UHGV virus genome: UHGV-0135138
Reading direction: 5' to 3' (one strand)
Length of the DNA stretch: 24,508 bases
From: a virus
Shown here one piece after another: positions 5,398 through 24,471 of the stretch. The notes under the pieces are model-generated. The model had not been told where the DNA came from. It did no database searches and saw nothing but the letters and a program-made list of their open reading frames with translations. A program made the position numbers and the translations under genes. How positions within the stretch are numbered: the first letter of the stretch is position 1; every line of letters begins with the position of its first letter.

Positions 5398-6057
5398 ATG
5401 CCAGAACAAAAGATGATGATTACCGAAGAGGCCTTTTCGGATTTCACGGGGCATATGTGCCGTGTCGGATTTACCAATTCTATCTCCGATGAACCTTTAA
5501 CCGAGCGACAACAAAGTCAGCTATCAGCTTGTTTGCAGGCGACTTCCTTCACCCAATCCGTAAACATAACCCCTGCTTCAGCGTCAGTTTTGGTGGGGAA
5601 AAGCGTTCAACTAAGTGCAGGTATCAGTATGGGTAAGAGTGCCGGTTTATTCACCTGGAATTCAGCCAATGATCAAACTGCAACCGTTAACAGCAATGGG
5701 TTAGTAACTGGCGTAGCCCCTGGCAAAGTAAAAATTACTGCAACTGATCAGGAAACCCAGCTTTCCGCGTCAGCTGAAGTGACTGTAAATCCGGTAGCTG
5801 TTCAATCTGTAACTATAACGCCAGACTCAACCTCTGTTGAGAAAGGGAAATCAGTCAATCTGAAAGCGAATATCCAGCCGTCAAATGCGACGAATAAAGC
5901 AGTTACCTGGTCTTCCAAAAATGAAGATAAGGCAACGGTAAACCAGAGCGGTAACGTTACTGGTGTTGCTGCTGGTACTGCCACGATTGAGGTAACTACT
6001 CATGATGGTAGCCACAAAGCAACAGCGATCGTAGAGGTTACTGGCGCACAGGAATAA
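5398..6057 (+). CDS. Ig-like (Big_2-type) domain protein, candidate head decoration protein
   Basis: 219 aa. Two tandem ~80-aa segments with the bacterial Ig-like group 2 pattern (ITP.S.SV..GKSV.L.A...P.NATNK.VTWSS.N...ATVN.SG.VTGVA.G.A.I..T). Preceded by an AGGA RBS and located right after the capsid gene. Confidence 0.7.
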   Translation: MPEQKMMITEEAFSDFTGHMCRVGFTNSISDEPLTERQQSQLSACLQATSFTQSVNITPASASVLVGKSVQLSAGISMGKSAGLFTWNSANDQTATVNSNGLVTGVAPGKVKITATDQETQLSASAEVTVNPVAVQSVTITPDSTSVEKGKSVNLKANIQPSNATNKAVTWSSKNEDKATVNQSGNVTGVAAGTATIEVTTHDGSHKATAIVEVTGAQE

Positions 6058-8666: not shown

Positions 8667-8716
8667 TGTTAGCGCAATAAATGCGTAGAATTAAAGGAAA
8701 AAGGAGTTTTCCATCA

Positions 8717-9463
8717 ATGTCTAATACCCATGTAAAAAACATCAAACTTGGTGCCTGTAAGGTGTCGTTTGGTGGTGTGGATTTGGGGTACACCAAAGGT
8801 GGTGTTCAGGTTGAAGTTGCCACTGAAACGCTGAAAGTCACCGTCGACCAGCACGGTCAGACAATTATGTCCGAGCTGGTGCAGGGTCGTAACATTACCA
8901 TTACTGCGCCGCTGGCCGAGTCTGTATTGAAAAATATGGTCGATCTGATGCCGGGGTCTACTCTGAGCGAAGACGACAACGCTGTGACCATTACTTCCGC
9001 ACAGGGCGTCAATCTGATCGATGTGGCGAAGGAGCTGGTTCTGACTCCGCAGGACACCACCGACTATGTGTTGACCATCCCAAAAGCGGCAACCGCGGGC
9101 AACTTCACGATGACCTACCAGTCTGATGATATCCGTGTGTTCTCTGTTCAATTCAGCGCATACCCAGATGACGCGGGTGTGTTGGGGAAAATGGGAATGC
9201 ACAAGCCTGTTGAGAGTATCGCGATTAATTCAGCTACCCAAACAGTCAAAGTGGGGGCAAAACTCCAGTTAAGTGCGGCTTTCACTCCAGCGGATGCAAG
9301 TAATAAATCTGGGGTATGGGAGTCTAATGCCCCAGATAAGGCTGTTGTAGATCAAAATGGGGTTGTTTCGGGCAAGGCGGTTGGCTCAGTCGAGATTACT
9401 TTCACCGCCGATGACAGCGGAAAAAAAGCAACTAAATCAATTTCGGTAACAGCAGCAGGCTAA
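8717..9463 (+). CDS. major tail (tube) protein with C-terminal Ig-like (Big_2-type) domain
   Basis: ORF is open from 8681, but the ATG at 8717 follows the strong RBS AAAGGAAAAAGGAG, giving ~248 aa. The C-terminal ~85 aa (IAINSATQTVKVGAKLQLSAAFTPADASNKSGVWESNAPDKAVVDQNGVVSGKAVGSVEITFTADDSGKKATKSISVTAAG) has the same Ig-like pattern as the 5398-6057 product. Followed by a hairpin and the chaperone-tape measure pair. Confidence 0.8.
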   Translation: MSNTHVKNIKLGACKVSFGGVDLGYTKGGVQVEVATETLKVTVDQHGQTIMSELVQGRNITITAPLAESVLKNMVDLMPGSTLSEDDNAVTITSAQGVNLIDVAKELVLTPQDTTDYVLTIPKAATAGNFTMTYQSDDIRVFSVQFSAYPDDAGVLGKMGMHKPVESIAINSATQTVKVGAKLQLSAAFTPADASNKSGVWESNAPDKAVVDQNGVVSGKAVGSVEITFTADDSGKKATKSISVTAAG

Positions 9464-9835: not shown

Positions 9836-10185
9836 TTTCCCGCGATGAATCCGGGACAAGGACCGTCTCAATAGATCTCGGATTCTATTTCAGTCGTGTA
9901 GTTGCTCACTACGCCGTGTCGCCATTAGAGCTATTGAACATCCCTCTCACGATGTTCTGGATGCTCAGCCGTAATATAGACCGTCTGCGTGCGGAAGAAG
10001 ATGTCCGCAACTTACAAGTCGCTCGTGTATCCCAGGCGAATGGCGAGGCTGTAAAGGCGTTCATGGAGGGGTTGCAACTCAGGATTGGAAGACCAGTCGT
10101 TACAGATAAAGTCTACGATCCAAGCCAGGATAAGGCAGACCCTGACGCCAAAGAGCAACTGATGCAAATATTTGGCAGAGGATGA
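9799..10185 (+). CDS. -1 frame extension of the tail assembly chaperone (lambda GT-like frameshift product, putative)
   Basis: The -1 frame is open from 9799 (after TGATGA at 9793-9798) to the stop at 10183-10185 and overlaps the last 12 codons of the chaperone ORF. Candidate slip site is the A5G run at 9807-9812 (GAA AAA G). The only internal start is a GTG at 9916 with no RBS, so independent initiation is unlikely. Confidence 0.5.
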   Translation, partial: RKRKSGWRRGKVISRDESGTRTVSIDLGFYFSRVVAHYAVSPLELLNIPLTMFWMLSRNIDRLRAEEDVRNLQVARVSQANGEAVKAFMEGLQLRIGRPVVTDKVYDPSQDKADPDAKEQLMQIFGRG

Positions 10186-10192
10186 CAAGGGA

Positions 10193-13100
10193 ATGTCACA
10201 AAACGTAGAGTTTATCCTGTCGCTGGAAGACAAACAGTTTACAGCGACAATCGATCGTGCGGGGAAACTGCTTACTCGATTTGGTGAGCAGGTAACAAAG
10301 CCTGCTCAAAAAATCCAAACCTTTGAACGCTCTTTGGGTTCGGTCGCCCGTATCATTGGCGTTCTGGAAAGCAAGCTCGATTCTACGGCAGACAAACTAC
10401 AGGATGTAGCTGCCGGTTTTGAGCTTGCTTCAGATGCTACGCGTAAAATGCGTGGCAACATCACCAGCCTCAATTCTGGTCTTAAAGCCCTGATTGAGCG
10501 CGTCGATACGACAACTTCTTCAGTAGATAAACTCACCGCGTCATTACGTAAAGTGCAATCAGAGCTAAATGATTTCTCTGATTGGGCGACCTATGCAAGC
10601 AAAAGCGCAAGCCGCTTTGGTACGGAGGTAAAAGAAGCCTCTGCGTCCGTGAGTGGTATGAATACGCGCCTTAATACCACGACGAAGCGACTCAGTAATT
10701 GGGGCGTCACAACGAGCCAGGCTGCCGAGGGGCTGAAAAAGGTTCGTGAGCAGATGGACGAAGTTATCGGACGTCAGCAACTGATTAGCAAGCCGGTACG
10801 CGTTCGTACATCTGGAAATGGCGATGGTGGTAGCGGTAGCGGTAGCGGGCAGCGTAGCGGCGCTTCTGGCCATAGAGGTAAAAGTAACGAAGGAGGTATG
10901 TTCTCTGGTCTTCGTGGCAACATTTTCCTGCTTGGCGAGATCGGAGATGCAGCCAGAACGGTTACTGACATCATGTTTGGGTGGCAGAAACCTATTGTTG
11001 AAGCTGCGGCCGAAATGGAACGTATGCGGGTGATGCTTCGAGGGTTGAATAAGGAGAAGTCCAACCCTGGCCAGGCTGCTGCTGATGATATGAAGTACAT
11101 CGTAGACATGGCTCAAAATGCGCCGTTCGCGATGCAGGCGTTAACAGACTCCTTCGTGAAGTTTCGTTCTGCTGGCTTAGATCCAACCGATGGTTCTCTA
11201 AAGGCGCTGGTGGACTCCGTTGCTCGTTTTGGTGGGGATAGCGAACTTCTGAAGCGTGCATCCATTGCTATTCAGCAAATGTCCGGTAAGGGCGTCGTGT
11301 CAATGGAAGAGCTACGTCAGCAATTAGGTGAGGCGATTCCGACAGCAATGAACGCAATGGCCAAGGCTGCTGGTCTGACAATGGGCGAGTTAACTAAAGC
11401 TGTAGCATCTGGAACGGTAGAAGCCAAAAACGCACTGGCACTTATGTTCAAAGAGTTGAAGATGCAGAACGAGGGAGCTGCGTCCGAAATGATGAACACA
11501 TTTACCGGTACGTTGGCGCAAATGAAGACAGCCTTTACGCTGTTCGCGGACAAAGTAGGCCAGACTGGTTATTTGTCTTCTTTAAGAGAGGGAATGAAAG
11601 AACTCACCTCCCTGATGAATAGCGCAGGGGGTACATCTTTTGCTCACTCGTTGGGAAGTGGATTGACAACGGCTGTGGATGGCTTGCGTGACCTGGCGAA
11701 ATGGCTGATTAAAAACCAGGAGCTTGTTGTCACTTTCGGCAAAGCCGTCGCTGTAACGATGGCCTTCAGACTCCTCAAATCGGGGATTTCTGGTGTCATC
11801 GGCACTGCTAATAGCATGATCAGCACCTTTGCTACGGTATCCACCACAATACAGGGGACATTTGATCTTGCGACGACAGCCGTTAAACGCTTCAATCGAG
11901 CCTCGCGCATGGGACTATCTACCATCCCAGCATTGATTTTTGCTATTCGCAATGCATTTGCTGGCTTGACTGCGTTCATGGCTGCAAACCCTATAGGATT
12001 CTTCTTTACTGCTGCGGTAACGGCGGTTTCGACGCTGATCTGGCACATGAGCAGTCTGAGGAAGAAAGTCGAAGACGTTGTAAACAAAGTCAGAGAAATC
12101 CCTGAAGCGATGACGCAGGCAGATCGCGCGATACTGGAAAGCGAACTGAGCAAGAAAGATCGAGAGATCGCCAGACTGGAAAAAGAAGTCGAGACTGGCA
12201 AAACCTTGCATTTTTCAGCATACACGGGACCGTACGAAGTTGGTGTCGATGTTGACGACAGCAAAAAGAAACTGGAAAAAACGCGAAAAGAAAGAGAGGA
12301 AGTCGCCAAAGCTCTTGATGGCGGCATAGCCGAAACCACCAAACAAAGCATTACTAAGAAATATAGAGAGGATATTGATGCGGTCAACCAGAAAGGGAAT
12401 GCATTAATAGCCTCACTCGCCAAAGAGATAGAAAGACTCACCAAAAGCAATGAGAAAATTGCCGCGCGGTCGGACTTGTCCGACCACGAAAAAAGCAAAT
12501 TAAGGGCAGAAAACAACGCAGAACTTGGACGTTTGTACGCCCAGGCCGACGAGCAAAAACTCAAAGGGTATAAAGCTCGTTATGAGAAGGGGCTTGGTGA
12601 ACTCGCCACATACTCAGAGGCGCTCAAAAAGGCCCAAGAGTCGAACGATATGCAGGGGCAAAAAGAAGCCCAGACAAAGATAGACTCCACCACCGAGGCT
12701 TTGAAGATTGTAAAAGAGGGGATGGAGAACCTTGAAATCAGTCTTAGCGTGAAAGCTGGGGACGGCTTGGTTTCTATTAATGGCGGTAAAATTGGTGAGT
12801 TTTCAAGCACACCAGTTGATGCTAATTCCAAAACTATGACTGGTTTTTGGAAACAGCAGATGGACTCTAAAAGGTATCAAAGAGTCAATCTCGATGGTTC
12901 CGCATTATACGACTTACAAGGTCAACCTGTTGTTGGGCCTCGACAACTCAAGGAGCAATTAAGACAGAAGAAAATTTACGGTGATGTGAAATTAGAGCAG
13001 TTGTCAGAAAATGACCGCATCGCAGTAATTAAGACTCTGACAAAAGCTCGTGAACTTGATGCTGAAGCAGCGGATAAGGCAGCAAACCGTACCGCAAAAG

Positions 13101-14767
13101 CAGCCGAGAGAGCAGCCAAGAAAGAACAGGCAGCGCAACAGAAACTGGCAGCCGGATACCAGAAGGCTCTGGACAAAGCCGATCAGCTTATGGGGCAAAT
13201 GGGGGAAAGCTCTAAGGCTACGGTATCGTTTGATCAGTCTCTTCGCGATACAACGAAATCGCTGACAGATTTGGCTAATGCGGTTCCTAACGAGTTCATC
13301 ACTCAAGAGATGATCGACAAGGCGAAAAAACGTCTTGAAGACCTCAAAAATGCGACACCTGAATATCGCGAGATGTTTAATCGCCGCAATGTTGAGCAGA
13401 TGATCTCCACTTGGGCACCGGAGGCGGATTCCATTATTAGTGCTGGCTATACGCCGTCTCGTGAAGAGAAAGTTGCTGATTTCGAAGACACCTACAACCG
13501 TAATCTTAAAGCATTGATTGATTTACGGAAAGCTGCGATTGAGTCAGGCACAGCATCACAAAGCCAGATTGAGTTGTTCGGTAAAAAGATCAATCAACTT
13601 ATTGCTGCTGGCAATACCGCGCTTATTAAAGAGACGGGGACTGCGACGCAGAAGTTGGCACTGGAATACGAAAACCTGGCAGAGCAGATCGAAAGCACCT
13701 GGACGGATTTGTTTAGTGGCTTAACTGATGTCCTGACTGATTTCGTTATTAACGGGAAGATGAGCTTCTCCAGCCTGTCTCAGTCCATTTTGAAAGATAT
13801 CACCAATATGGTCGTGAAGTCGCAGATCACGCTACCTCTGATGAACATGTTGGGGATGGGAACCACCGCAGCTGGTAGTTCGCAGAGTGGTAATTTGCTG
13901 ACCGGGGTTGCTTCCGCCGTTGCCAATCAAGGGGTACGAATGGGCAACACTGTTAATGGTGACAAGTCGGTAGGAGAAGCCACGAAGGAGACGTCCAGTT
14001 CGGTAACTGGATTGGGGCAAACGACACAGCAGACCACCAGCGCAATTGGTACTGCAACAAATGCGATTGGTAGCTGGGTATCAGGGCTATTTGATAGCAC
14101 TGAAGCCAAAGATACCGAGACAAAAGCCGTGAAGGACTCCATCTTCTCGATGCAGAACCTCAGCTCTGTTACCGGAGCGCTATCTGCCGCTTTTGCAATG
14201 CTTGGGGCTAACGCTTCCGGCTCTGGTAATAAGTGGTTGAATTTTGGAGCAACGGTTGCAACTGGCCTTGTTTCCGTCTGGGCTGGTGGTGGTTTTGATA
14301 AACTACTGTCAAGCTCTTCGAGAACAACTTCCGGCTTTAATAATCTGACCGGCCCAGCTGCTGACGGCACGAATGGCATCCCTGCAATTCCGAAGTTCGC
14401 AAATGGTGGCATATTCGGAAAAGACGGTGTGATTCCGCTTCGAGCGTATCAGAAAGGTGGTATTGCCAACTCTCCCCAATTGGCGTTGTTTGGAGAAGGT
14501 TCTATGAATGAGGCGTATGTTCCATTGCCTGATGGTCGAACGATCCCCGTAACGCTCAGTACCGATGGTATGAGTGGAAACGGAAACGTTCTTTCTCCGG
14601 TATCAATTGAGATCAACGTCCATAGTGACGGCAGCACAACTGAATCCGGTGATAAAGAAAGCATATGGAACAATGCCGCTCAACGGGTGAAAGCTGTCGT
14701 GCTTGAGACTATCGCTCAAGAGAAACGCCCTGGCGGATCACTCAATCCAAACACTCAACGTAACTAA
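10193..14767 (+). CDS. tail tape measure protein
   Basis: Very long ORF (open from TTG 10172; first ATG at 10193, ~1525 aa) directly after the chaperone pair. Extended helical/coiled-coil segments, internal hydrophobic stretches (GLSTIPALIFAIRNAFAGLTAFMAANPIGFFFTAAVTAVSTLIW), a Gly/Ser-rich tract, and a Gly-rich C-terminal region of the kind seen in lambda H (recalled). Confidence 0.9.
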   Translation: MSQNVEFILSLEDKQFTATIDRAGKLLTRFGEQVTKPAQKIQTFERSLGSVARIIGVLESKLDSTADKLQDVAAGFELASDATRKMRGNITSLNSGLKALIERVDTTTSSVDKLTASLRKVQSELNDFSDWATYASKSASRFGTEVKEASASVSGMNTRLNTTTKRLSNWGVTTSQAAEGLKKVREQMDEVIGRQQLISKPVRVRTSGNGDGGSGSGSGQRSGASGHRGKSNEGGMFSGLRGNIFLLGEIGDAARTVTDIMFGWQKPIVEAAAEMERMRVMLRGLNKEKSNPGQAAADDMKYIVDMAQNAPFAMQALTDSFVKFRSAGLDPTDGSLKALVDSVARFGGDSELLKRASIAIQQMSGKGVVSMEELRQQLGEAIPTAMNAMAKAAGLTMGELTKAVASGTVEAKNALALMFKELKMQNEGAASEMMNTFTGTLAQMKTAFTLFADKVGQTGYLSSLREGMKELTSLMNSAGGTSFAHSLGSGLTTAVDGLRDLAKWLIKNQELVVTFGKAVAVTMAFRLLKSGISGVIGTANSMISTFATVSTTIQGTFDLATTAVKRFNRASRMGLSTIPALIFAIRNAFAGLTAFMAANPIGFFFTAAVTAVSTLIWHMSSLRKKVEDVVNKVREIPEAMTQADRAILESELSKKDREIARLEKEVETGKTLHFSAYTGPYEVGVDVDDSKKKLEKTRKEREEVAKALDGGIAETTKQSITKKYREDIDAVNQKGNALIASLAKEIERLTKSNEKIAARSDLSDHEKSKLRAENNAELGRLYAQADEQKLKGYKARYEKGLGELATYSEALKKAQESNDMQGQKEAQTKIDSTTEALKIVKEGMENLEISLSVKAGDGLVSINGGKIGEFSSTPVDANSKTMTGFWKQQMDSKRYQRVNLDGSALYDLQGQPVVGPRQLKEQLRQKKIYGDVKLEQLSENDRIAVIKTLTKARELDAEAADKAANRTAKAAERAAKKEQAAQQKLAAGYQKALDKADQLMGQMGESSKATVSFDQSLRDTTKSLTDLANAVPNEFITQEMIDKAKKRLEDLKNATPEYREMFNRRNVEQMISTWAPEADSIISAGYTPSREEKVADFEDTYNRNLKALIDLRKAAIESGTASQSQIELFGKKINQLIAAGNTALIKETGTATQKLALEYENLAEQIESTWTDLFSGLTDVLTDFVINGKMSFSSLSQSILKDITNMVVKSQITLPLMNMLGMGTTAAGSSQSGNLLTGVASAVANQGVRMGNTVNGDKSVGEATKETSSSVTGLGQTTQQTTSAIGTATNAIGSWVSGLFDSTEAKDTETKAVKDSIFSMQNLSSVTGALSAAFAMLGANASGSGNKWLNFGATVATGLVSVWAGGGFDKLLSSSSRTTSGFNNLTGPAADGTNGIPAIPKFANGGIFGKDGVIPLRAYQKGGIANSPQLALFGEGSMNEAYVPLPDGRTIPVTLSTDGMSGNGNVLSPVSIEINVHSDGSTTESGDKESIWNNAAQRVKAVVLETIAQEKRPGGSLNPNTQRN

Positions 14768-16716: not shown

Positions 16717-17297
16717 TTCATGTGCAGCTTGGCGGCCCTATGGCCAAACATTTTGGCCGCCACTGGCATCTAAAGGTACGCAATACAAAACAGGCTCTGG
16801 ATTTAATTGAGGCCAACAAGCCTGGGTTTAAGGCATGGATGAAGCGCAATATCAAAACCTATGACAGATACCACATCCAGATCACCAATAAACAGGGCCA
16901 CAAGTGGTCTGTGGACGAGAGTGAATATCAGATGATGGGGCAGTCTGACAACATTGCCAAAATCCGCATTACCCCTGTTCCGCGAGGAAGTGGTGGATCT
17001 GCCTTTGGGTGGTTTCAGACGATTGTGGGGGCCACTTTATTGGTGGCATCTTTTTTTGGCTTGCCCGCTCTTGCGCCTCTCGGTTTGTCACTGATGATGG
17101 GCGGTATAGCGCAAATCATATCTCCGCAAGCCACTAACGAAAGTGTGAGGCAGGCGGATAACTCGAACTCTTATTACTTCGATGGGCCTCAAAACACAAC
17201 AAACCAGGGGAACCCTGTACAGCTTATCTATGGCGAGGAAATTTTAGTTGGCTCACAGGTCGTGAGTTCTTCTATCACCATCGACCAGCTAATGTAA
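16704..17297 (+). CDS. I: tail assembly protein, lambda I homologue
   Basis: GTG start with GGGAG RBS 7 nt upstream, overlapping the end of K. Hydrophobic/Gly-rich centre (LMMGGIAQIISPQA vs lambda LGGVAQMLAPKA) and C-terminal PVQLIYGEEILVGSQVVSSSITI vs lambda LPVLYGEMRVGSRVVSQEIST (recalled). Confidence 0.85.
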   Translation: MSELVHVQLGGPMAKHFGRHWHLKVRNTKQALDLIEANKPGFKAWMKRNIKTYDRYHIQITNKQGHKWSVDESEYQMMGQSDNIAKIRITPVPRGSGGSAFGWFQTIVGATLLVASFFGLPALAPLGLSLMMGGIAQIISPQATNESVRQADNSNSYYFDGPQNTTNQGNPVQLIYGEEILVGSQVVSSSITIDQLM

Positions 17298-17314
17298 TCA
17301 AGGATTTTTTGGAC

Positions 17315-20300
17315 ATGGAACAGTTCAAGCAAAAAAAATTACCGCTTCTTATTGGCGGCGCTGGTGGTAAAAAAAGTAGCAAAAGCTCCAGCCGTACTCC
17401 GGTTGAAGCTGACGATACCGTGAATTCTCGTGCAATGGCCGCTATCCTCGATCTTCTTGGGGAAGGGGTAATTGGCGGCTTAGTAAATGGCGCAAGATCT
17501 ATTTTTGTCGACGATTTACCGATTGTAAATGAAGACGGCTCCTCCAATTTTAGCGGAATTACTTGGGATTTTCGCGACGGTTCACAAGACCAGACTCCAA
17601 TGTCCGGCTTTGATTTCGTTGAAACACCCAAATCCGTCAATATTCAATTAAAAAAAACACATTATGTAACGGTTTCAATCGATAACGATGAAGCTGATCG
17701 TGTTCGTGTCATCATGAAGTTTCCTTCTTTGCGAAGCGTAGATAAAAAAACTGGTGACACGAACGGCACGACTGTTGAGTACAAGTTCCAGATAGCGAAT
17801 GGCGACTCAACATTTGTAGATGTGGTTGCAGAAGGTGAAAAAAGCGTTGGCATTAAGCTAACTGCAAAGAAGACAGGTGTTTATTACCGTAGTTATGAAC
17901 TGAAGTTACCTAAGCCTGGGCGCGCGTATAAGGTGCGTGTTGTCCGTATTACCGATGACAACAACAGTCAGTATCTCTATAACGACACATGGGTAGACTC
18001 AATAGGTGAGATTGTTGATACACCGATGAACTACCCAAACTCTGTGCTGGTGGGGTTGAAGGTTAATTCTGAGCAGTTTGGCAACTCTATGCCATCTCGT
18101 TCGTATTTGGTGCGAGGATTAAAAATTCGTGTGCCGTCAAACTACAACGAATCCAGCAACACTTATGTGGGCGTATGGGATGGCACTTTTAAGCTGCTGT
18201 CTTCTTCGAACCCTGCGTGGATTCTCTTTGATTTGCTTACCAATGCTCGATATGGTCTTGGGCAATTCGTGTCGGAATCCATGATTGACCTTGGCCAACT
18301 GTACCAGATTGGTCGATATTGTGACGAAGAGGTCGATGATGGCTTTGGGGGTAAAGAGAAACGCTTTGCAATCAATACGCAGATCACCAGTCGACAGGAC
18401 GCATACCGATTAATTCAGGATATTGCCGGTGCATTCCGCGGCATGGTGTTTTGGGCTGGTGGCATGGTTAACATCATGCAGGATAGCCCATCAGATCCGG
18501 TAATGATGTTTACTAACTCCAACGTCAAAGATGGATTGTTTTCCTATAAAGGTTCTGCACGTAAAGATCGTCCATCAGTTGCGCTCGTGACTTATAACAA
18601 CAAGGAGGACGGTTATAAGCAAAATATCGAGTACGTCGAAGATCAGGAAGCAATGCGCCGTTATGGTGAGCGCAAAACAGAAGTCGTAGCATTTGGCTGT
18701 ACAAGTCGAGGACAGGCTCACCGAGTTGGTTTGTGGCTTTTGTATACCGCCAGAATGGAGTCGGATGTAATTACATTTACTGCCGGTTTAGACGCCTCAT
18801 TTCTGATGCCTGGTGAAACCGTTCTGATTCAGAATAAATATCGCGCGGACAAACGTAACTCCGGTCGAATTATGGAGTTTACCAAAAACAGCATCACTCT
18901 CGATGCGCCTGTGTCGTTAACTAAAAGCGGCAGCTTTATTCGGATACTGAATCAGGAAGGCAAAATCGTTGAACGCGATGTTCTTGAAACTGGCGAAAAC
19001 ATAACAAAGGTTACGTTTTCAAAAGCCCTGACGTCAGCGGAAACGCCTGTTTTGAGCGGTGTCTGGACAATTACAGAACCAGATCTCGAACCTATGCGCG
19101 TTCGCATCGTTAACATCGCGCAGGGGGAAACGCCGGGTAGCTTTGACATCACCGCTGTTGAGAACAATCCGACTAAATATGAGGCGATCGACAATGGTGC
19201 AACGCTTATCCCGCAGAATACGACGGTATTGGACCCGACTTACTCGAAGCCGTCTAATTTGCAAATCACTGAAGGGACTTATCTCTCAAGTCCGGGCAAC
19301 CTGTCAGTAAAATTGACTGCAACATGGGAAGGAAAATCTCCAGAATATTGGATCAGCTGGCGACGTTCAGATGAAAGCAATGTATCGAACTGGCAATCGG
19401 CGCGTGTAACCGAAGAGCAATACGAAATCGTTAATGTTGCGGAGAATGGACGCTACGACTTCCAGCTGTATGCGGTTTCATTCAACGGTAAAAAAACAGA
19501 GATCATCAGCACCGTTTATCAGGTGCAGGGCACAATGACTCCACCTGATTCGCCAACGTCATTAACGGCAGTTGGGGACTATCGAAATGTGATACTGAAT
19601 TGGATTAATCCAGATTCGGTGGACCTTGATCATATTAATGTTTACGCATCCAAGGTTAACAATCTGGATACAGCGAAACTGATCGCAGAGTCTGCAAGCA
19701 CCACCTTTACACATGCTGGTCTTGGGGATAACGAAACGTGGTATTACTGGGTGCGAGCATCGAACAAGCGCGGCATGTTAAGCCCTCCGAACTCAAACTT
19801 GGGTACAGAGGCGACAACTCGCGATGTATTGTCGTTCCTGACTGGCAAAATTACATCTTCCGAGCTTGGTCAGGCCTTGACTGAGGAAATTAGCTCAAAA
19901 GCCTCTCAGGAGGCGGTGAACTCCATCTATGAACAGATTGATGAAAGCCTGAAGAACCTTGATGGCAAGTTTTCAGAGACAGATCGGCGGCTTGAAGAAG
20001 CTCAAAACGATCTTAAAACGGAGGTTTCCAGCACCGTCAGCAAGGTAGAAGACGCTCTTAAAGAGGTTGAAGACTCTAACGCTGCTTTAATTCAGCTACA
20101 GGAGACTGTCTCCGAGCAGGGCAAGGCTGTGGCTGGTGCAGTCGAAGCGGCCCATGCTGCGTTCGAAAATGCTTCTGCATTGATTGCCGAAGAACGTGAG
20201 GCTCGAGTAGAAGGAGATATGGCTAACGCTAAACAGATTGAGACAATGAAATCTTCTGTTGACGATAGTGTTGCGGCAGTTGAAGAGATGAAGAAAACTG

Positions 20301-21475
20301 TGGCCGAAGTCGGGCGAGTCAGTGCTGAAACGACCACTAATATTGAAGCGTTGGCAAAAACTAATATTGATCTCGCATTACGCCAGGATGAAGAACAACA
20401 CAAGCAGTTAATGAATAACGCTAAGATAGCTACCACTCAGAAGACATTTGCTGATGATTTGTCAGCGATGGCGTCGAAAGTGGAAGAGATCCGTGCTGAA
20501 ATTGGTGAAGATATTCGCGCCTCTATCACGGAGGAAACGACAGCTCGGGTTGAGGCTGATAAGGCTATTGCAACCCAAATTGACAAGCTTGAAGCTCAGA
20601 TTAACGACGATATTGCTGCGGCGATTGTGCTTGAACAAGAGGCTCGCGTCACAGCCGACGAATCATTGTCAAAACAAATTACTACATTACAAGCCAAGGT
20701 TGAAGGCGACATCAGTGCGGCGTTGACCGAAGAGCAAATTGCCAGAGCGAGCGCTGATGAATCGTTGGCGCAACAAATCACAACACTAAAGACCCAAACA
20801 GGTGTTGATATCAAGGCGGCTGTTGCGGAAGAAACGAAAGCCAGAACTGATGTTGACTCTGCGCTGGCTGGGCAGATCACTAATTTGCAGGCTCAGACAG
20901 AAAAAGATATCAGCGCCGCAATTACGTCTGAATCTACCGCACGCGCAGAAGCTGATAAAGCACTAAGTGGTCGTATTGATACGATAAGGACTGAAGTAGA
21001 AGGCAACTCAGCAACTATCCAGCAGCAATCCCAAGCCATTGCCGACACCAACAAAAAAATCTCAACGGCGTGGACGTTGAAAATGGAGACTTCAACGAGT
21101 GGGGGGCAGAAGTATATTGCCGGTATTGCGCTTGGTATCGACACAACTGGTCTTTCTCAGTTTTTGGTGCAAGCGGACAGGTTTGGTTTGGTCAACTCTG
21201 TGAACGGGAAGATCACCACACCATTTGTTATCGAAAACAGCGTCGCCTATATGAATGGTGCGTATATCAAGGATGGCACAATCACCAATGCAAAAGTTGG
21301 TGATCTGCAATCTACCGATTTTGTCTCCGGTAGATCTGGATGGCGATTCGGTAAAAATGGAACGCTTGAGATCAACGGTAATAGCGGCGGCAATGGGCGA
21401 TTGGTCATAAATGGTCAGCGGATTGATGTTTATGACGATAACAACGTCCTACGAGTAAGAATTGGCCTTCTGTGA
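17315..21475 (+). CDS. J: central tail fibre / tip attachment protein, lambda J homologue
   Basis: ORF is open from TTG 17309; the ATG at 17315 is preceded by AAGGA. Long colinear similarity to lambda J as recalled (NSVLVGLKVNSEQFG, VPSNYN, IWDGTFK, GQYCD, DGFGG, AFGCTSRGQAHRVGLWL, GKIT.S.LG, KYIAGI.LG, LSQFLV). Followed by three in-frame stops (TGATAGTAG). Confidence 0.9.
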   Translation: MEQFKQKKLPLLIGGAGGKKSSKSSSRTPVEADDTVNSRAMAAILDLLGEGVIGGLVNGARSIFVDDLPIVNEDGSSNFSGITWDFRDGSQDQTPMSGFDFVETPKSVNIQLKKTHYVTVSIDNDEADRVRVIMKFPSLRSVDKKTGDTNGTTVEYKFQIANGDSTFVDVVAEGEKSVGIKLTAKKTGVYYRSYELKLPKPGRAYKVRVVRITDDNNSQYLYNDTWVDSIGEIVDTPMNYPNSVLVGLKVNSEQFGNSMPSRSYLVRGLKIRVPSNYNESSNTYVGVWDGTFKLLSSSNPAWILFDLLTNARYGLGQFVSESMIDLGQLYQIGRYCDEEVDDGFGGKEKRFAINTQITSRQDAYRLIQDIAGAFRGMVFWAGGMVNIMQDSPSDPVMMFTNSNVKDGLFSYKGSARKDRPSVALVTYNNKEDGYKQNIEYVEDQEAMRRYGERKTEVVAFGCTSRGQAHRVGLWLLYTARMESDVITFTAGLDASFLMPGETVLIQNKYRADKRNSGRIMEFTKNSITLDAPVSLTKSGSFIRILNQEGKIVERDVLETGENITKVTFSKALTSAETPVLSGVWTITEPDLEPMRVRIVNIAQGETPGSFDITAVENNPTKYEAIDNGATLIPQNTTVLDPTYSKPSNLQITEGTYLSSPGNLSVKLTATWEGKSPEYWISWRRSDESNVSNWQSARVTEEQYEIVNVAENGRYDFQLYAVSFNGKKTEIISTVYQVQGTMTPPDSPTSLTAVGDYRNVILNWINPDSVDLDHINVYASKVNNLDTAKLIAESASTTFTHAGLGDNETWYYWVRASNKRGMLSPPNSNLGTEATTRDVLSFLTGKITSSELGQALTEEISSKASQEAVNSIYEQIDESLKNLDGKFSETDRRLEEAQNDLKTEVSSTVSKVEDALKEVEDSNAALIQLQETVSEQGKAVAGAVEAAHAAFENASALIAEEREARVEGDMANAKQIETMKSSVDDSVAAVEEMKKTVAEVGRVSAETTTNIEALAKTNIDLALRQDEEQHKQLMNNAKIATTQKTFADDLSAMASKVEEIRAEIGEDIRASITEETTARVEADKAIATQIDKLEAQINDDIAAAIVLEQEARVTADESLSKQITTLQAKVEGDISAALTEEQIARASADESLAQQITTLKTQTGVDIKAAVAEETKARTDVDSALAGQITNLQAQTEKDISAAITSESTARAEADKALSGRIDTIRTEVEGNSATIQQQSQAIADTNKKISTAWTLKMETSTSGGQKYIAGIALGIDTTGLSQFLVQADRFGLVNSVNGKITTPFVIENSVAYMNGAYIKDGTITNAKVGDLQSTDFVSGRSGWRFGKNGTLEINGNSGGNGRLVINGQRIDVYDDNNVLRVRIGLL
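20508..21002 (+). repeat. five tandem 99-bp (33-aa) coding repeats inside J
   Basis: Protein repeats EDIRASITEETTARVEADKAIATQIDKLEAQIN / DDIAAAIVLEQEARVTADESLSKQITTLQAKVE / GDISAALTEEQIARASADESLAQQITTLKTQTG / VDIKAAVAEETKARTDVDSALAGQITNLQAQTE / KDISAAITSESTARAEADKALSGRIDTIRTEVE. More degenerate copies extend upstream to about 20170. Confidence 0.75.
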
Positions 21476-21568: not shown

Positions 21569-24103
21569 ATGTGGTACAGGGAAGGTACTATCACATTTAC
21601 ACAGGGTAGCAATACTCTGGTTGGGGCAGGGACAGCCTGGAACGTAACCGCTAATGGTGTGTTGCCGGGTATGATCGTCGTTGGCCCCGATAATAAACTG
21701 TATGAGATCAAGCGCGTAACCAGTGACACGAATATTGTTCTCTCAGAACCTTATACCGGTGAAACTCAGTCTGAAGTTCCGTGCCGAATCATTACGACCT
21801 ATGAGGGCGACTTAACGCAGTTTAGCGCACGCTTTACTGCACTAATGTCGCGTATGTCGGCTGATTCCAAGTCCATGCGTAGTTGGCTGACTGCCGTGGA
21901 TGAAATCACAATTGAACGTGAAGATGGTACGGAATTAACCATAAAATCCCTTACTCAGATCGTTAATGAGCACAACAAAAACGTAGAGTGGTATAAAAAT
22001 AACACTGATGAAATTGATTCCGCTGGCACCTATGCGCGTGAGGCCGCGAGTAGCGCGACAACTGCTGCGCAAAACGCTGAGCGCGTTGAACAGATCGCGC
22101 AAAATATTGCTAACAGTATAAGTACGGCCCAGCAGGCTGCCACAGATGCTGCAAATAGTGCCGGTGCCGCGAAAACGTCAGAAACGAATGCGGCAGCGTC
22201 ACAACAATCAGCAGCCACTTCTGCATCCACCGCGACCACGAAAGCGTCAGAAGCAGCCTCCTTAGCCAGGGATGCGTCGGCTTCAAAAGAGGCGGCAAAA
22301 TCATCAGAAGCGAACGCGAAAGCGTCGGAAACCAGTGCCGAATCCTCAAAAACGGCAGCCGCATCGTCAGCCAGTTCGGCAGCGTCATCGGCATCGTCTG
22401 CGTCGGCTTCAAAAGATGAAGCGACTAAACAGGCGTCAGCCGCAAAAGATAGTGCTATGACTGCATCCTCGAAAGCAACAGAGGCGACAGGCAGTGCAAC
22501 GGCTGCCTCTCAGAGCAAAACTGCTGCTGAATCCGCTGCGACCCGTGCGGAAGCTGCTGCTGCTCGTGCTGAAGAGATTGCCGGTGCAGTTGCGATGGAA
22601 GACGCAAGCCTTACAACTAAAGGTGTTGTGAAACTTAGCAGTGCGACCAACAGCACTTCAGAGTCACTGGCTGCAACCCCAAAAGCGGTAAAAGCTGCAT
22701 ATGACCTGGCTGACGGGAAATACACTGCGCAGGATGCAACGACAACCCAGAAAGGGATAATCCAGCTAAGTAGCGCCATCAATGACGAATCTGAAACGCT
22801 TGCTGCAACGCCAAAAGCGGTAAAAGTCGCCTATGACAATGCCGAAAACCGCCTGCAGAAAGATCAGAATGGCGCTGATATCCCTGACAAGAACGCATTC
22901 AGGGAAAGTCTTGGGCTGGGGGATGCCGCCACCAAAAATATCGGTACTACAGCCGGCACCGTAGCGGCAGGAAACGACTCCAGACTGGTTAACGCACTGC
23001 AAAAATCCACTTCAGCCCTGGCCGTGGACCTGAATACACTGGGGAGTCTGGAAGTCCAGGGAACTTATTATCAGCCAGCGGATAAAGGGGCAACAGCTGC
23101 GCATCATTACCCGGTGCTCCGGTCCGGGACATTGCAGGTTCTGCCTGGTGTCTGGGGAGGCTGCCAACAGGAATATACGAGCTGGAATCCACCGAGAAAA
23201 TTTGTGAGAACACTGACAGGCTATTTCAAAGGTAATGGCCCGTGGTCGCCGTGGGTGGAGGTGGCGTTTACCGACAGTACAGTGGCTGTTGCGACCGCAG
23301 CGACAAAATTGCAGACGACCAGAAGAGTTGGTGGTGTGGATTTTGACGGGACATCAGATATCAGCCTCCCCGGAGTGGATGCGCCAGGCGATCAGGATAC
23401 GACAGGTAATGCGGCTACTGCGACCAAATTGCAGACGCCAGTGAATATTAACGGTACAGCGTTTGATGGTAGCCACGATATCACGATCCGGGATGAAGGT
23501 GCATTTCAGAAGCCTGCGCTCTTTATACATTCCTCTGTAGATTTGAACACGCTAGGTGGTCCAGGTAGCGAAGGTTTTTATTTTCAGAAATACGGGAGTG
23601 TGGCGACAGTTGATCATCATTACCCAACCAACAGACCAGGCACGCTGACTGTACTGCGTGGTGGATTTGACGGATGCCAGCAGGAATATTTTAGTGTTAA
23701 TCCTCCAAGGAAATTTTTCAGGGCATTAACAGGAGCCTGGAACGGACAGGATGGCCCATGGTCAGACTGGTTTGAGATTCAGACTCTGGGAGGTGGAAGT
23801 GGAGGTACGCAGGTTTTTGGAACCGAATATCAAAATAAATCATCAGAACGCGGTCCGGGTGTTACATACACTAATAGTCGATCGTATCCGATTATGGTGA
23901 TCATTGATGGATACTACGGAGGTGGTGACGGTTTTCATCTTTTTATAAACGATGAAATATTGATATCCCCATCTACATCTTCAGGACAAAATGACGACCA
24001 ATTTCAGTTTACTTTCATCGTTCCGGCAGGCGCAACGTACATGATCTTTGAAAAAACTTTCGGTACGAATTTCCGTATTCACACCTGGTTGGAGTTTTGT
24101 TAA
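21569..24103 (+). CDS. stf: side tail fibre protein (Stf-like), mosaic
   Basis: 844 aa with GGAG RBS. Long Ala/Ser/Thr-rich shaft (AAKTSETNAAASQQSAATSASTATTKASEAA...) that I recall as nearly identical to lambda Stf. Conserved tail-fibre motifs TKGVVKLSSATNSTSESLAATPKAVKAAYDLADGKYTAQDATTTQKGIIQLSSAINDESETLAATPKAVKVAYDNAEN. Distinct N-terminus and a C-terminal region with internal duplications. Confidence 0.9.
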   Translation: MWYREGTITFTQGSNTLVGAGTAWNVTANGVLPGMIVVGPDNKLYEIKRVTSDTNIVLSEPYTGETQSEVPCRIITTYEGDLTQFSARFTALMSRMSADSKSMRSWLTAVDEITIEREDGTELTIKSLTQIVNEHNKNVEWYKNNTDEIDSAGTYAREAASSATTAAQNAERVEQIAQNIANSISTAQQAATDAANSAGAAKTSETNAAASQQSAATSASTATTKASEAASLARDASASKEAAKSSEANAKASETSAESSKTAAASSASSAASSASSASASKDEATKQASAAKDSAMTASSKATEATGSATAASQSKTAAESAATRAEAAAARAEEIAGAVAMEDASLTTKGVVKLSSATNSTSESLAATPKAVKAAYDLADGKYTAQDATTTQKGIIQLSSAINDESETLAATPKAVKVAYDNAENRLQKDQNGADIPDKNAFRESLGLGDAATKNIGTTAGTVAAGNDSRLVNALQKSTSALAVDLNTLGSLEVQGTYYQPADKGATAAHHYPVLRSGTLQVLPGVWGGCQQEYTSWNPPRKFVRTLTGYFKGNGPWSPWVEVAFTDSTVAVATAATKLQTTRRVGGVDFDGTSDISLPGVDAPGDQDTTGNAATATKLQTPVNINGTAFDGSHDITIRDEGAFQKPALFIHSSVDLNTLGGPGSEGFYFQKYGSVATVDHHYPTNRPGTLTVLRGGFDGCQQEYFSVNPPRKFFRALTGAWNGQDGPWSDWFEIQTLGGGSGGTQVFGTEYQNKSSERGPGVTYTNSRSYPIMVIIDGYYGGGDGFHLFINDEILISPSTSSGQNDDQFQFTFIVPAGATYMIFEKTFGTNFRIHTWLEFC

Positions 24104-24105
24104 GA

Positions 24106-24471
24106 ATGAAATATTTTGTCGATGCGAAAGGTACTATTTATGCCTACGAGTCTGACGGTTCGCAGGATGAGTTCATTAAAGAGGGACTGACGCCAGTAAC
24201 GGAAGCGGAGGTGAAAGAACGCCTGAAACCATCAGCAGAATGCTGGCAACGACGAGCGGAGAGCAAGAGAGAGTCGTTGATATCTGAAGCTGGTCGCAAT
24301 TTGTCCGTCAATCAGGTTCGATTGCTTTCGGGGCGTGTGTTATCAGAACGTGAGAGTCAGTCGCTGAATGCCTGGCTGGATTACGTAGACGCACTGGAGG
24401 CGATGACGTTTGCTGCTGTTGTTGATGAGGAAAGCTATCTCAGCATCAAGTGGCCGGAAAAACCCGCGTGA
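24106..24471 (+). CDS. tfa: tail fibre assembly protein (Tfa-like chaperone)
   Basis: ORF is open from TTG 24097; the ATG at 24106 (MKYFVDAKG...) is more plausible, with GGAG 11 nt upstream. Immediately follows the fibre gene. C-terminus LNAWLDYVDALEAMTFAAVVDEESYLSIKWPEKPA resembles the lambda Tfa C-terminus (EAWKKYRVLLNRVD...APDIEWPAVP, recalled). Confidence 0.8.
   Translation: MKYFVDAKGTIYAYESDGSQDEFIKEGLTPVTEAEVKERLKPSAECWQRRAESKRESLISEAGRNLSVNQVRLLSGRVLSERESQSLNAWLDYVDALEAMTFAAVVDEESYLSIKWPEKPA

What the first reader, a model, noticed from the sequence alone, without database searches (positions are those of the whole stretch)
20170..21002. J protein carries an expanded block of 33-aa tandem repeats that lambda J lacks
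Between the conserved GKITxSELG motif and the KYIAGIxLG region, this J homologue has about 330 extra residues made of 33-aa units (consensus roughly D-I-x-A-A-[IVL]-x-E-E-x-x-A-R-x-x-A-D-x-[AS]-L-x-x-Q-I-x-x-L-x-[AT]-Q). Five are well conserved (20508-21002) and more degenerate copies lie upstream. The period is a multiple of the heptad-like spacing of hydrophobic positions, consistent with a helical rod extension. Equal-length DNA repeats are also substrates for recombinational length variation.
Basis: partly seen in the sequence, partly recalled or inferred. Interest (0 to 1): 0.6.

Follow-up and report, generated by a model that had tools for sequence, protein, structure and literature searches.

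The report
Repeat-built helical shaft of tail fibre
The tail-tip protein J of this SSU5-like phage-plasmid has a long alpha-helical shaft that lambda J lacks, ending in five 33-residue repeats; it is a regular example of the shaft recently solved in F-type pyocins, where it refolds to drive membrane puncture, so it is real but not a new kind of thing.

Summary
J (17315-21475, +) has 422 residues between GKITSSELG and KYIAGI, against 55 in lambda J. Five tandem 33-residue repeats occupy aa 1067-1231 (nt 20507-21001). Identity at lag 33 is 0.47, against 0.097 in shuffles. Only one further copy lies upstream (aa 956-984). The rest of the block is non-repeating helix, so "330 residues of 33-aa units" is overstated.

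The period is not heptad-based. The hydrophobic period is 3.67 (33 = 3 x 11), with no power at 3.5. The DNA copies are about 52% identical, with no shared word above 8 nt, so they are not recombination substrates today. Relatives nevertheless carry 5, 6, 9 or 10 tandem copies.

AlphaFold2 predicts continuous helices, not globular domains. [quoted passage not shown] That shaft was shown in 2026 to switch from a trimeric coiled coil to a beta-prism on receptor binding. Each window repeat carries one reverse and one forward copy of the published switch motif SxSxxMxxLxS. The downstream side fibre has the pyocin-type N-terminal domain that docks on this shaft.

Verdict: a real feature and a new member of a known kind. 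Moderate interest.

The parts
17315..21475 (+). Gene for the central tail fibre / tip attachment protein J. The mechanical ORF starts at TTG 17309. Residue numbers in this report count from 17309 (1388 aa). The ATG at 17315 matches the annotated starts in SSU5 and Cyrano.
   Evidence: Pfam FNIII-A_GpJ 104-238, Phage-tail_3 360-523, fn3 647-730, Phage_Tail_Tip 1236-1370. PDB sequence matches to F2-pyocin tail fibre, T1 gp33 and lambda gpJ.
19844..19870 (+). GKITSSELG motif (aa 846-854). It is the last landmark shared with lambda J (GKITESHLG) before the helical shaft.
19856..20173 (+). Proximal shaft segment (aa 850-955). It is non-repeating alpha-helix. The hydrophobic period of 3.55 was measured on aa 846-1066, which contains this segment.
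   Evidence: AF2 helix 850-1033. Period 3.55, z 12, on aa 846-1066. No repeat-profile hits. High nucleotide identity to Cyrano/CMS-2020a ends at 19917.
20174..20260 (+). Isolated copy of the 33-residue repeat (aa 956-984).
   Evidence: E 8.7e-8 with a profile of the five tandem units only. (36-37 bits against at most 12.8 in shuffles). Its start-to-start spacing of 110-113 aa (mostly 111) to the first tandem copy recurs in the homologues that contain both.
20261..20506 (+). Conserved 82-residue non-repeat insert in the shaft (aa 985-1066). It holds the predicted helix break at aa 1030-1040 (nt 20396-20428, ...RQDEEQHKQLMNNAK...). It is the candidate docking site for the side fibres (inferred).
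   Evidence: It is 82-85% identical to Cyrano and PhiR41_1, while the flanking shaft is 53-69% identical. AF2 break with pLDDT below 50.
20507..21001 (+). Array of five tandem 33-residue repeats (aa 1067-1231). Each unit equals three hendecads and carries one reverse (unit positions 5-15) and one forward (unit positions 20-30) copy of SxSxxMxxLxS.
   Evidence: AF2 helix 1041-1220. The last unit of the F2-pyocin shaft is a clear copy.
21002..21109 (+). Start of the beta-structured part (aa 1232-1267), predicted as 10-13-residue strands directly after the array. The first predicted strand already lies inside repeat 5 (aa 1221-1230).
   Evidence: This corresponds to the beta 'seed' described for pyocin and phage central fibre proteins.
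21014..21418 (+). Phage_Tail_Tip (PF09327/DUF1983) central straight fibre domain. J ends soon after it, without a lambda-type C-terminal receptor-binding domain.
   Evidence: Foldseek matches to lambda gpJ central fibre 8xcj and to the SU10 tip fibre 7z4b.
21569..24103 (+). Side tail fibre (844 aa). The N-terminal domain (aa 2-107, nt 21572-21889) resembles the shaft-binding N-terminal domain of the F2-pyocin side fibre. Its shaft (aa 202-384) is 64% identical to lambda Stf.
24097..24471 (+). Tail fibre assembly protein (Caudo_TAP).

Best explanation

Shown:
- J has about 370 helix-predicted residues between its last FNIII region and its beta-structured tip.
- The distal 165 residues are five 33-residue units with a hendecad (11/3) hydrophobic period.
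- The block is homologous to the shaft of the F-type pyocin central fibre protein, which cryo-EM shows to be a parallel three-stranded coiled coil.

Inferred from that homology:
- In the virion the three J chains form a rod that holds the tip away from the hub. The array alone would be about 24 nm long, and the whole shaft about 55 nm if it is straight.
- The rod is metastable. On receptor engagement, refolding starts from the beta strands that abut repeat 5, and the array becomes a triangular beta-prism.
- Each 33-residue unit would become one beta-hairpin: two 11-residue strands carrying SxSxxMxxLxS in opposite orientation, joined by 4- and 7-residue connections.
- The refolding would shorten the fibre by roughly 20 nm, displace the FNIII plug and release the tape measure protein.
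- Copy number (5 here; 6, 9 or 10 in close relatives; up to 22 in a J-like protein) would set rod length and stroke.

Further inference: the conserved 82-residue insert just upstream of the array is where the side fibres dock, through an N-terminal domain of the pyocin side-fibre type.

My sub-confidences: helical trimeric shaft 0.9, fold switch 0.5, side-fibre dock 0.4. The overall figure of 0.6 is for the shaft identification together with the fold-switch reading as the most likely mechanism.
For: Anatomy and repeats.

Helix: two AF2 runs give helices at 850-1033 and 1041-1220 (pLDDT about 80-88), with beta starting at 1221-1223.

Periodicity: in the array, power at 3.667 (z 4.4), at the beta-like harmonic 2.2 (z 3.6) and at 16.5 (z 2.7), with none at 3.5.

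Homology to a solved shaft: J aa 1051-1360 aligns with F2-pyocin fibre 888-1193 (domain i-Evalue 8.7e-25). The shaft alone matches F2 pyocin at E 8.8e-8 and T1 gp33 at 2.3e-12. The last pyocin shaft unit, 1033-1061, is a clear copy of the repeat (E 1e-12 to 3e-15).

Published structures: F2 pyocin has an alpha-helical shaft forming a three-stranded coiled coil (PMC13455828). In F7 pyocin, residues 921-1083 are a coiled coil that converts to a beta-prism. Gln substitutions at the S positions block the coiled-coil-to-beta-prism transition, and mutations that destabilise the beta-prism abolish killing without impairing assembly. The motif SxSxxMxxLxS was defined there, and the switch is predicted in 21 of 24 siphophage central fibre proteins (PMC12874032).

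Motif test here: my regex rendering finds the reverse motif at 1071, 1104, 1137, 1170 and 1203, and the forward motif at 1086, 1119, 1152, 1185 and 1218. That is 11 hits against 2.6 expected, reached by 0 of 5000 shuffles, with none in this region of lambda J. E10, R14 and D18 of the unit sit at the i/i+4 spacing the paper describes for M-position salt bridges.

Junction: AF2 models the forward-motif segment of repeat 5 as a strand, while the same segment in repeats 3 and 4 is helical.

Side-fibre dock: the side-fibre N-terminus matches the F2-pyocin side fibre N-terminus (E 6.5e-4 with the single sequence, 1.9e-5 with a profile). It has no similarity to lambda Stf's N-terminal domain. The insert is a conservation island, and the side-fibre N-terminal domain is 80-95% conserved across the same phages.
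Against: There is no experimental or multimer-model evidence for this protein. Both AF2 runs were monomers and gave only the helical state for the array.

The motif classes are my rendering of a verbal description, and the hairpin mapping is deduced from the motif, not from coordinates.

Only the last pyocin unit is a strong copy of the repeat; the rest of the pyocin shaft is irregular.

One pyocin study describes the shaft as heptad-based with a stutter, whereas this array is hendecad-like. In distant relatives the unit is more often 32, 36 or 39 residues, so a strict '33 = 3 x 11' logic is not universal.

The side-fibre match is weak. The basic residues reported to contact the pyocin shaft are not obviously conserved, and an acidic 'gap' in the insert is only suggestive.
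Confidence: 0.6

Rival explanations
1. The coiled coil is a static spacer and nothing more. It is a stable rod whose only role is to place the receptor-binding tip at a set distance from the hub, for example to reach through O-antigen or capsule, or to match side-fibre length. Copy number tunes the reach. There is no refolding.
For: AF2 gives only helix for the array. Copy number varies between otherwise 95% identical J proteins, as expected for length tuning. Lambda and T5 infect without such a switch. T1's equivalent region is simply flexible and unresolved.
Against: All five units keep small residues at six fixed positions, plus an E-R-D polar core. This is the published signature of compatibility with both folds, and it occurs 11 times against 2.6 expected. 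A pure spacer would not need this. The shaft is homologous to one that is shown to switch. The beta-like 2.2 periodicity coexists with the helical one.
Confidence: 0.3
2. The block exists mainly as a docking platform for the side tail fibres, as in F-type pyocins. The repeats provide several equivalent binding sites.
For: The side fibre has a pyocin-type N-terminal domain. In pyocins that domain binds the shaft, and particles do not form without the side fibre.
Against: In pyocins the three side fibres bind one short, kinked acidic segment and not the repeated part. Here the conserved island is the non-repeat insert, while the array is the most divergent part of J (54-55% identity to Cyrano and PhiR41_1), although the side-fibre N-terminus is 80-95% conserved. 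Docking therefore explains the insert, not the repeats.
Confidence: 0.15
3. The block is a recombinational contingency locus. The equal-length DNA repeats misalign and change copy number frequently.
For: Relatives differ in copy number. The shaft is a mosaic cassette: 92-93% nucleotide identity to Cyrano/CMS-2020a stops at 19917, and in the rows that were listed the E. coli plasmids match only up to that point.
Against: Units are about 52% identical in DNA, with a longest shared word of 8 nt here and 12 nt in Cyrano. TRF finds nothing. Third codon positions are near random. Variation is better explained by ancient duplications plus exchange of whole shaft cassettes between phages.
Confidence: 0.05
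4. The repeats are a compositional or low-complexity artefact, or independent globular repeat domains.
For: The region is rich in Ala, Glu, Gln and Thr. Pfam has no model that reaches its threshold on it.
Against: The lag-33 identity lies about 15 standard deviations above shuffles. In total 1889 cluster representatives carry the unit at E <= 1e-3. AF2 predicts uninterrupted helix.
Confidence: 0.02

Closest known systems
Central fibre protein of Pseudomonas aeruginosa F-type pyocins (PyoF10 / PA0641; PDB 25vf; He et al. 2026 bioRxiv PMC12874032; Gu et al. 2026 PMC13455828)
   Same: It has the same J-like hub + FNIII + long alpha-helical shaft + beta tip (DUF1983) architecture. The shaft and tip align, and the last shaft unit is the same repeat. 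The shaft length of the switching part is similar, 163 aa against 165 aa here. The SxSxxMxxLxS motif is present. The partner side fibre has a related N-terminal domain.
   Different: Here the distal shaft is a clean array of five equal 33-residue units, and the proximal shaft is about twice as long (aa 846-1066, against the pyocin's roughly 100-residue 'spine'). The pyocin shaft is irregular apart from its last unit. The host element is an infectious phage-plasmid, not a tailocin. I saw no PyoF11/F12-like tip adhesins downstream, but I did not search for them specifically. The fold switch is untested here.
Lambda gpJ (PDB 8iyk, 8xcj)
   Same: It has the same family domains (PF24801, PF13550, PF09327), the same GKITxSxLG and (K/H)YxAGI landmarks, and the same gene order M-L-K-I-J-stf-tfa.
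   Different: Lambda has only 55 residues between the landmarks and no copy of the repeat. It has a C-terminal LamB-binding domain that this J lacks. Ur-lambda side fibres bind the distal tail protein ring through an Ig-like domain absent from the window's side fibre.
T1 gp33 central fibre protein (PDB 9l9p; PMC11945409)
   Same: It is J-like with 33-residue repeats in the same position (...DDIQASLTDIREVIATETEALSREIDQLKAQIG... twice). Its C-terminal part was noted to be longer than lambda's.
   Different: T1's repeats are near-identical copies of a variant unit. The region was not resolved and was only modelled with AF3.
J proteins of SSU5, Cyrano, CMS-2020a, PhiR41_1 and SSU5-like plasmids
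   Same: They are orthologues. SSU5 has the same 1+5 copies, with 85-91% identity in the shaft.
   Different: Cyrano has 10 tandem copies and PhiR41_1 has 9. Their hub and tip are 90-96% identical to the window's, but the shaft is only 53-69% identical apart from the conserved insert.

Membership tests
Lambda-J-like central tail fibre / tip attachment proteins | FNIII-A_GpJ + Phage-tail_3 hub domains and a Phage_Tail_Tip (DUF1983) fibre domain, in a gene after M-L-K-I homologues | tested here: met
   (E 1e-30 to 1e-41, all above the gathering scores). Gene order. PDB sequence match to lambda gpJ at E 2.8e-123.
Central fibre proteins with an alpha-helical shaft (F-pyocin type) | Sequence homology of the C-terminal roughly 400 residues to the pyocin central fibre protein (the criterion used by He et al.) | tested here: met
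   domain 2: aa 1051-1360 against F2 pyocin 888-1193, i-Evalue 8.7e-25; shaft alone at E 8.8e-8. The comparison is with F2, not F7; I had no F7 sequence.
Central fibre proteins with an alpha-helical shaft (F-pyocin type) | A long continuous alpha-helix or coiled coil between the FNIII domains and the beta tip | tested here: met
   AF2 helices 850-1033 and 1041-1220. Amphipathic periods 3.55 and 3.667. The trimeric state itself could not be modelled.
Fold-switching central fibre proteins (coiled coil to beta-prism) | Recurrent SxSxxMxxLxS motif in alternating orientation, with i/i+4 Arg-Asp/Glu pairs at M positions | tested here: met
   one reverse and one forward copy in each of the five units, 11 hits against 2.6 expected, reached by 0 of 5000 shuffles; unit E10, R14 and D18. 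The regex is my own rendering of the paper's description.
Fold-switching central fibre proteins (coiled coil to beta-prism) | Beta-prism 'seed' strands directly after the coiled coil | tested here: met
   AF2 strands 1221-1230, 1233-1245, 1251-1262 and 1268-1277 directly follow the helix. These are monomer models, so the prism geometry is not shown.
Fold-switching central fibre proteins (coiled coil to beta-prism) | An alternative beta-prism conformation of the shaft, predicted (trimer, deep alignment) or observed | not testable with these tools
   Only monomer AF2 was available. Both runs gave helix for the array.
F-pyocin-type side-fibre attachment to the shaft | Side fibre with the shaft-binding N-terminal domain | tested here: met
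   Aa 2-107 against F2-pyocin side fibre 3-104: E 6.5e-4 with the single sequence and 1.9e-5 with a profile. The match is weak but collinear from the N-terminus. There is no similarity to lambda Stf's N-terminus.
F-pyocin-type side-fibre attachment to the shaft | An acidic, kinked segment in the shaft that receives the side fibres | tested here: inconclusive
   There is a predicted helix break at aa 1030-1040 next to RQDEEQ and FADD, inside a conservation island. No complex could be modelled, and the pyocin contact residues are not clearly conserved.
   Array: power 0.1 at 3.5 (z -1.0) and 51.8 at 3.667 (z 4.4). 33 is not divisible by 7. The upstream segment peaks at 3.55.

The most novel reading that the evidence does not exclude
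The 33-residue unit is a quantised 'stroke element' of a non-contractile tail. Each unit stores one beta-hairpin's worth of refolding energy and about 4 nm of shortening. The natural series of SSU5-like phage-plasmids, with 5, 6, 9 or 10 units between otherwise 90-96% identical hubs and tips, would then be an allelic series that tunes how far and how hard the tail tip is pulled to the outer membrane. A separately conserved 82-residue insert would serve as the side-fibre dock. This would make the fold-switch model quantitatively testable in a culturable E. coli/Salmonella phage system.
Probability: 0.3. Interest if true: 0.7.

Novelty: new member of a known kind. Interest (0 to 1): 0.4.

Why it matters
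How non-contractile tails obtain the energy to breach the envelope was answered for F-type pyocins only in 2026, by refolding of the central-fibre coiled coil into a beta-prism. Phage counterparts were only predicted.

This window shows that SSU5-like phage-plasmids carry an unusually regular version of that shaft. These elements are common in clinical Enterobacteriaceae: 225 related plasmids are in PLSDB. They also show natural copy-number variants and a pyocin-type side-fibre anchor.

That gives a tractable phage system for testing the mechanism, and a rationale for engineering fibre length or host range. It does not reveal a new kind of structure.

Tried and rejected
- TRF and the repeat finder on the DNA found no tandem DNA repeat, only a 58-nt pair at 71% identity. 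The repeat is visible only in protein.
- Pfam on the block gave only sub-threshold chance hits (FlgK_D1, DUF7605). No curated family covers the unit.
- Foldseek of the AF2 model against the PDB matched only the tip domain (lambda gpJ 8xcj, SU10 7z4b). Long helices gave nothing useful, and the pyocin entries seem to postdate that library.
- The search for homologous proteins returned mostly partial proteins under 1000 aa and, for the side-fibre N-terminus, only close relatives. The profile therefore gained little reach, and one chimeric member (P0088) produced a spurious hit to J.
- A second AF2 run on a shorter construct with more sequences was meant to coax a beta state of the array. It stayed helical, apart from the last 10 residues of repeat 5.
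- The supplementary tables of He et al., which list the 24 phages, are not held, so I could not check whether SSU5 was among them.
- Literature searches for hendecad or 33-residue repeats in phage tails, and for SSU5 tail proteins, found no description of this repeat.
- I looked for a correlation between copy number and side-fibre length across four phages (844, about 1260, about 1341 and about 597 aa against 5, 5, 10 and 9 copies). None is apparent, so I dropped the idea.
- I considered a degenerate sixth unit in aa 1232-1264 (also 33 residues, beta-predicted). The repeat profiles do not detect it, so it remains a remark only.

Full report
**Context.** The window is the virion module of an SSU5-like phage-plasmid. 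It encodes large terminase, capsid, Ig-decorated proteins and a 1531-aa tape measure protein. These are followed by M, L, K, I, J, a side tail fibre and a tail-fibre assembly protein. J is 79% identical in DNA to Salmonella phage SSU5 over its whole length. It is 90-93% identical to E. coli phages Cyrano, CMS-2020a and PhiR41_1 over its first 62% (annotations). Residue numbers below count from the mechanical ORF start at 17309. The annotated ATG of the orthologues corresponds to 17315.

**Checking the observation.**
- Translation of 17309-21475 shows GKITSSELG at aa 846 and KYIAGI at aa 1268. That is 422 residues apart, against 55 between the same landmarks in lambda J.
- Five units of exactly 33 residues fill aa 1067-1231 (nt 20507-21001). 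Their consensus is xDIxAAITEExxARxxADxALAxQITTLxAQxE, with eight invariant positions.
- Identity at lags 33, 66 and 99 is 0.47-0.48. The median at other lags is 0.088, and shuffles give 0.097 +/- 0.025.
- A profile built from the five units finds one further copy at aa 956-984 (E 8.7e-8) and nothing in lambda J.
- An iterated profile built from all family repeats still finds only these six copies. Shuffled upstream sequence never exceeds 12.8 bits, against 36-37 bits for the isolated copy.
The 110 residues between GKIT and the isolated unit are not repeats. Lag-33 identity over the whole upstream block (aa 846-1066) is 0.053.
- At the DNA level there is no tandem repeat. Units average 52% identity, the longest shared word is 8 nt, and third codon positions agree at 0.35. 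The duplications are old and are maintained at the protein level.

**Structure.**
- Two AlphaFold2 monomer runs with family alignments give uninterrupted helices at aa 850-1033 and 1041-1220, a low-confidence break at aa 1030-1040, and beta strands of 10-13 residues from aa 1221-1223 onward (mean pLDDT 73.5 and 83.9). There are no globular repeat domains.
- Hydrophobic periodicity in the array peaks at 3.667 residues (33/9 = 11/3; z 4.4), with no power at 3.5. A second peak lies at 2.2 (33/15; z 3.6) and another at 16.5 (z 2.7).
- The upstream block (aa 846-1066) peaks sharply at 3.55 (z 12).
- The unit is therefore three hendecads, not a heptad multiple. A polar E10-R14-D18 set sits in the middle hendecad.

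**What it corresponds to.** A sequence search of the PDB places J next to several solved proteins:
- the F2-pyocin tail fibre (25vf; hub E 1e-128, plus a second domain aligning J 1051-1360 to pyocin 888-1193 at 8.7e-25);
- T1 gp33 (9l9p), which has 33-residue repeats at the same position;
- lambda gpJ.

Three 2026 papers describe the pyocin protein.
- Gu et al. call the region an alpha-helical shaft that forms a three-stranded coiled coil. It is much longer than lambda's, and three trimeric side fibres are bound to it.
[quoted passage not shown] The conversion opens the tip and ejects the tape measure protein. Mutations that destabilise the beta-prism abolish killing without impairing assembly. 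Each prism strand carries SxSxxMxxLxS in the orientation of the strand. Similar switches are predicted in 21 of 24 siphophage central fibre proteins, but not in lambda or T5.
- A third preprint reports the same shaft, with a stutter near its distal end.
- In T1 the equivalent region is unresolved.

**Testing membership.**
- I rendered the published motif as residue classes and scanned J. The reverse form occurs at 1071, 1104, 1137, 1170 and 1203, and the forward form at 1086, 1119, 1152, 1185 and 1218. That is one of each per unit, in fixed register.
- With one extra hit this makes 11, against 2.6 expected and reached by 0 of 5000 shuffles. The upstream block is not enriched, and this region of lambda J has none.
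- This suggests, by inference only, that each 33-residue unit equals one hairpin: two 11-residue strands with 4- and 7-residue connections. That would also account for the 16.5 and 2.2 harmonics.
- In the AF2 model the forward-motif segment of repeat 5 is already a strand paired with the following 'seed' strands, while the same segment in repeats 3 and 4 is helical.
- The last unit of the pyocin shaft (1033-1061) is a clear copy of the window's repeat (E 1e-12 to 3e-15). The rest of the pyocin shaft is degenerate.
- I could not model trimers, so the beta-prism state is untested here.

**Distribution and variation.**
- SSU5 has the same 1+5 copies. Cyrano has 1+10 and PhiR41_1 has 1+9. Database homologues from E. 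coli, Salmonella, Yersinia pestis, Cronobacter and Photorhabdus have 5, 6 or 9 tandem copies. The start-to-start spacing from the isolated copy to the first tandem copy is 110-113 residues, mostly 111.
- The block matches 77 phage records from Vibrio, Aeromonas, Burkholderia, Pseudomonas and other hosts. All the listed matches lie in tail proteins, apart from a few in unannotated or 'hypothetical' genes.
- A profile of the five units hits 1889 cluster representatives at E <= 1e-3, with up to 29 copies. One is a J-like protein with 22 copies. In those distant arrays the commonest unit spacing is 32, then 36, 33 and 39.
- Against Cyrano and PhiR41_1, the window's hub is 95-96% and its tip 90-95% identical. 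The proximal shaft is only 53-65% and the array 54-55% identical, whereas the 82-residue insert stays at 82-85%.
- In DNA, high identity stops at 19917. Of 225 related plasmids, 56 carry the whole block, and the best of them is 82.6% identical. In the rows that were listed, the E. coli plasmids match only up to 19917.
- The shaft therefore behaves as an exchangeable cassette around a conserved island.

**Side fibres.** The 844-aa side fibre shares its Ala/Ser-rich shaft with lambda Stf (64% over aa 202-384) but not lambda's N-terminal domain. [quoted passage not shown] That is the domain that binds the pyocin shaft. Taken with the conserved insert and its predicted kink, this suggests that the side fibres of this phage dock on J's shaft at about aa 1030-1040. 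This is an inference from weak homology and co-conservation.

**Verdict.**
- The helical-rod reading is supported. The heptad and DNA-recombination arguments are not, and the extent of the repeats was overstated.
- The best explanation is a trimeric, probably metastable, coiled-coil shaft of the F-pyocin type. Its distal part is built of five hairpin-equivalent units.
- This is a new member of a kind described in 2026, and it is notable for its regularity and for natural copy-number variants. Interest is moderate.

Noticed in passing
window 21572-21889 (side tail fibre aa 2-107): The N-terminal domain matches the shaft-binding N-terminal domain of the F2-pyocin side fibre (PDB 25ve/25vj; E 6.5e-4, or 1.9e-5 with a profile). 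It does not match lambda Stf's Ig-like domain that binds the distal tail protein. It is 80-95% conserved in Cyrano, SSU5 and PhiR41_1, although the distal parts of those fibres differ.
   Followed up: partly
window 22172-22720 (side tail fibre aa 202-384): The Ala/Ser-rich shaft plus the first Phage_fiber_2 repeat is 64% identical to lambda Stf (orf-401) aa 205-394, so this is a mosaic exchange between unrelated phage groups. The TRF hits at 22353-22574 lie in this low-complexity shaft.
   Followed up: partly
window 19917 and about 20807: There are sharp mosaic breakpoints. Nucleotide identity of 92-93% to Cyrano/CMS-2020a ends at 19917, about 25 codons into the shaft, and resumes at about 83% near 20807. 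In the rows that were listed, the E. coli SSU5-like plasmids match only up to 19917.
   Followed up: partly
window 20261-20506 (J aa 985-1066): This is an island of conservation (82-85% identity to Cyrano and PhiR41_1) inside an otherwise diverged shaft (53-69%). It contains the only predicted helix break, at aa 1030-1040.
   Followed up: partly
proteins P0090-P0233: The same unit occurs in 1889 protein clusters, in arrays of up to 29 copies and in proteins of up to 3914 aa. Some have no J domains (P0092 has no Pfam hit; P0094 has only a weak D5_N hit). The unit spacing is more often 32, 36 or 39 than 33.
   Followed up: partly
window 17309-17315: The mechanical ORF for J starts at TTG 17309, but the orthologues are annotated from the ATG two codons later (17315). 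J's start lies just after the end of the gene I ORF at 17297.
   Followed up: no
window 5398-6057 and 8681-9463: Two virion-module proteins carry Big_2 Ig-like domains, two copies in the first. They are probably a capsid or tail decoration protein and the tail tube protein.
   Followed up: no
window 10172-14767: The tape measure protein is very long at 1531 aa (TMP_3 + Tape_meas_lam_C), which implies a long tail.
   Followed up: no
window 21002-21100 (J aa 1232-1264): The segment directly after the array is also 33 residues long before GGQKYIAGI. By eye it loosely resembles a unit (SATI...S.AIAD against SAAI...S.ARAEAD) and is predicted as beta strands. It could be a degenerate, constitutively beta 'sixth unit', but the repeat profiles do not detect it.
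   Followed up: partly
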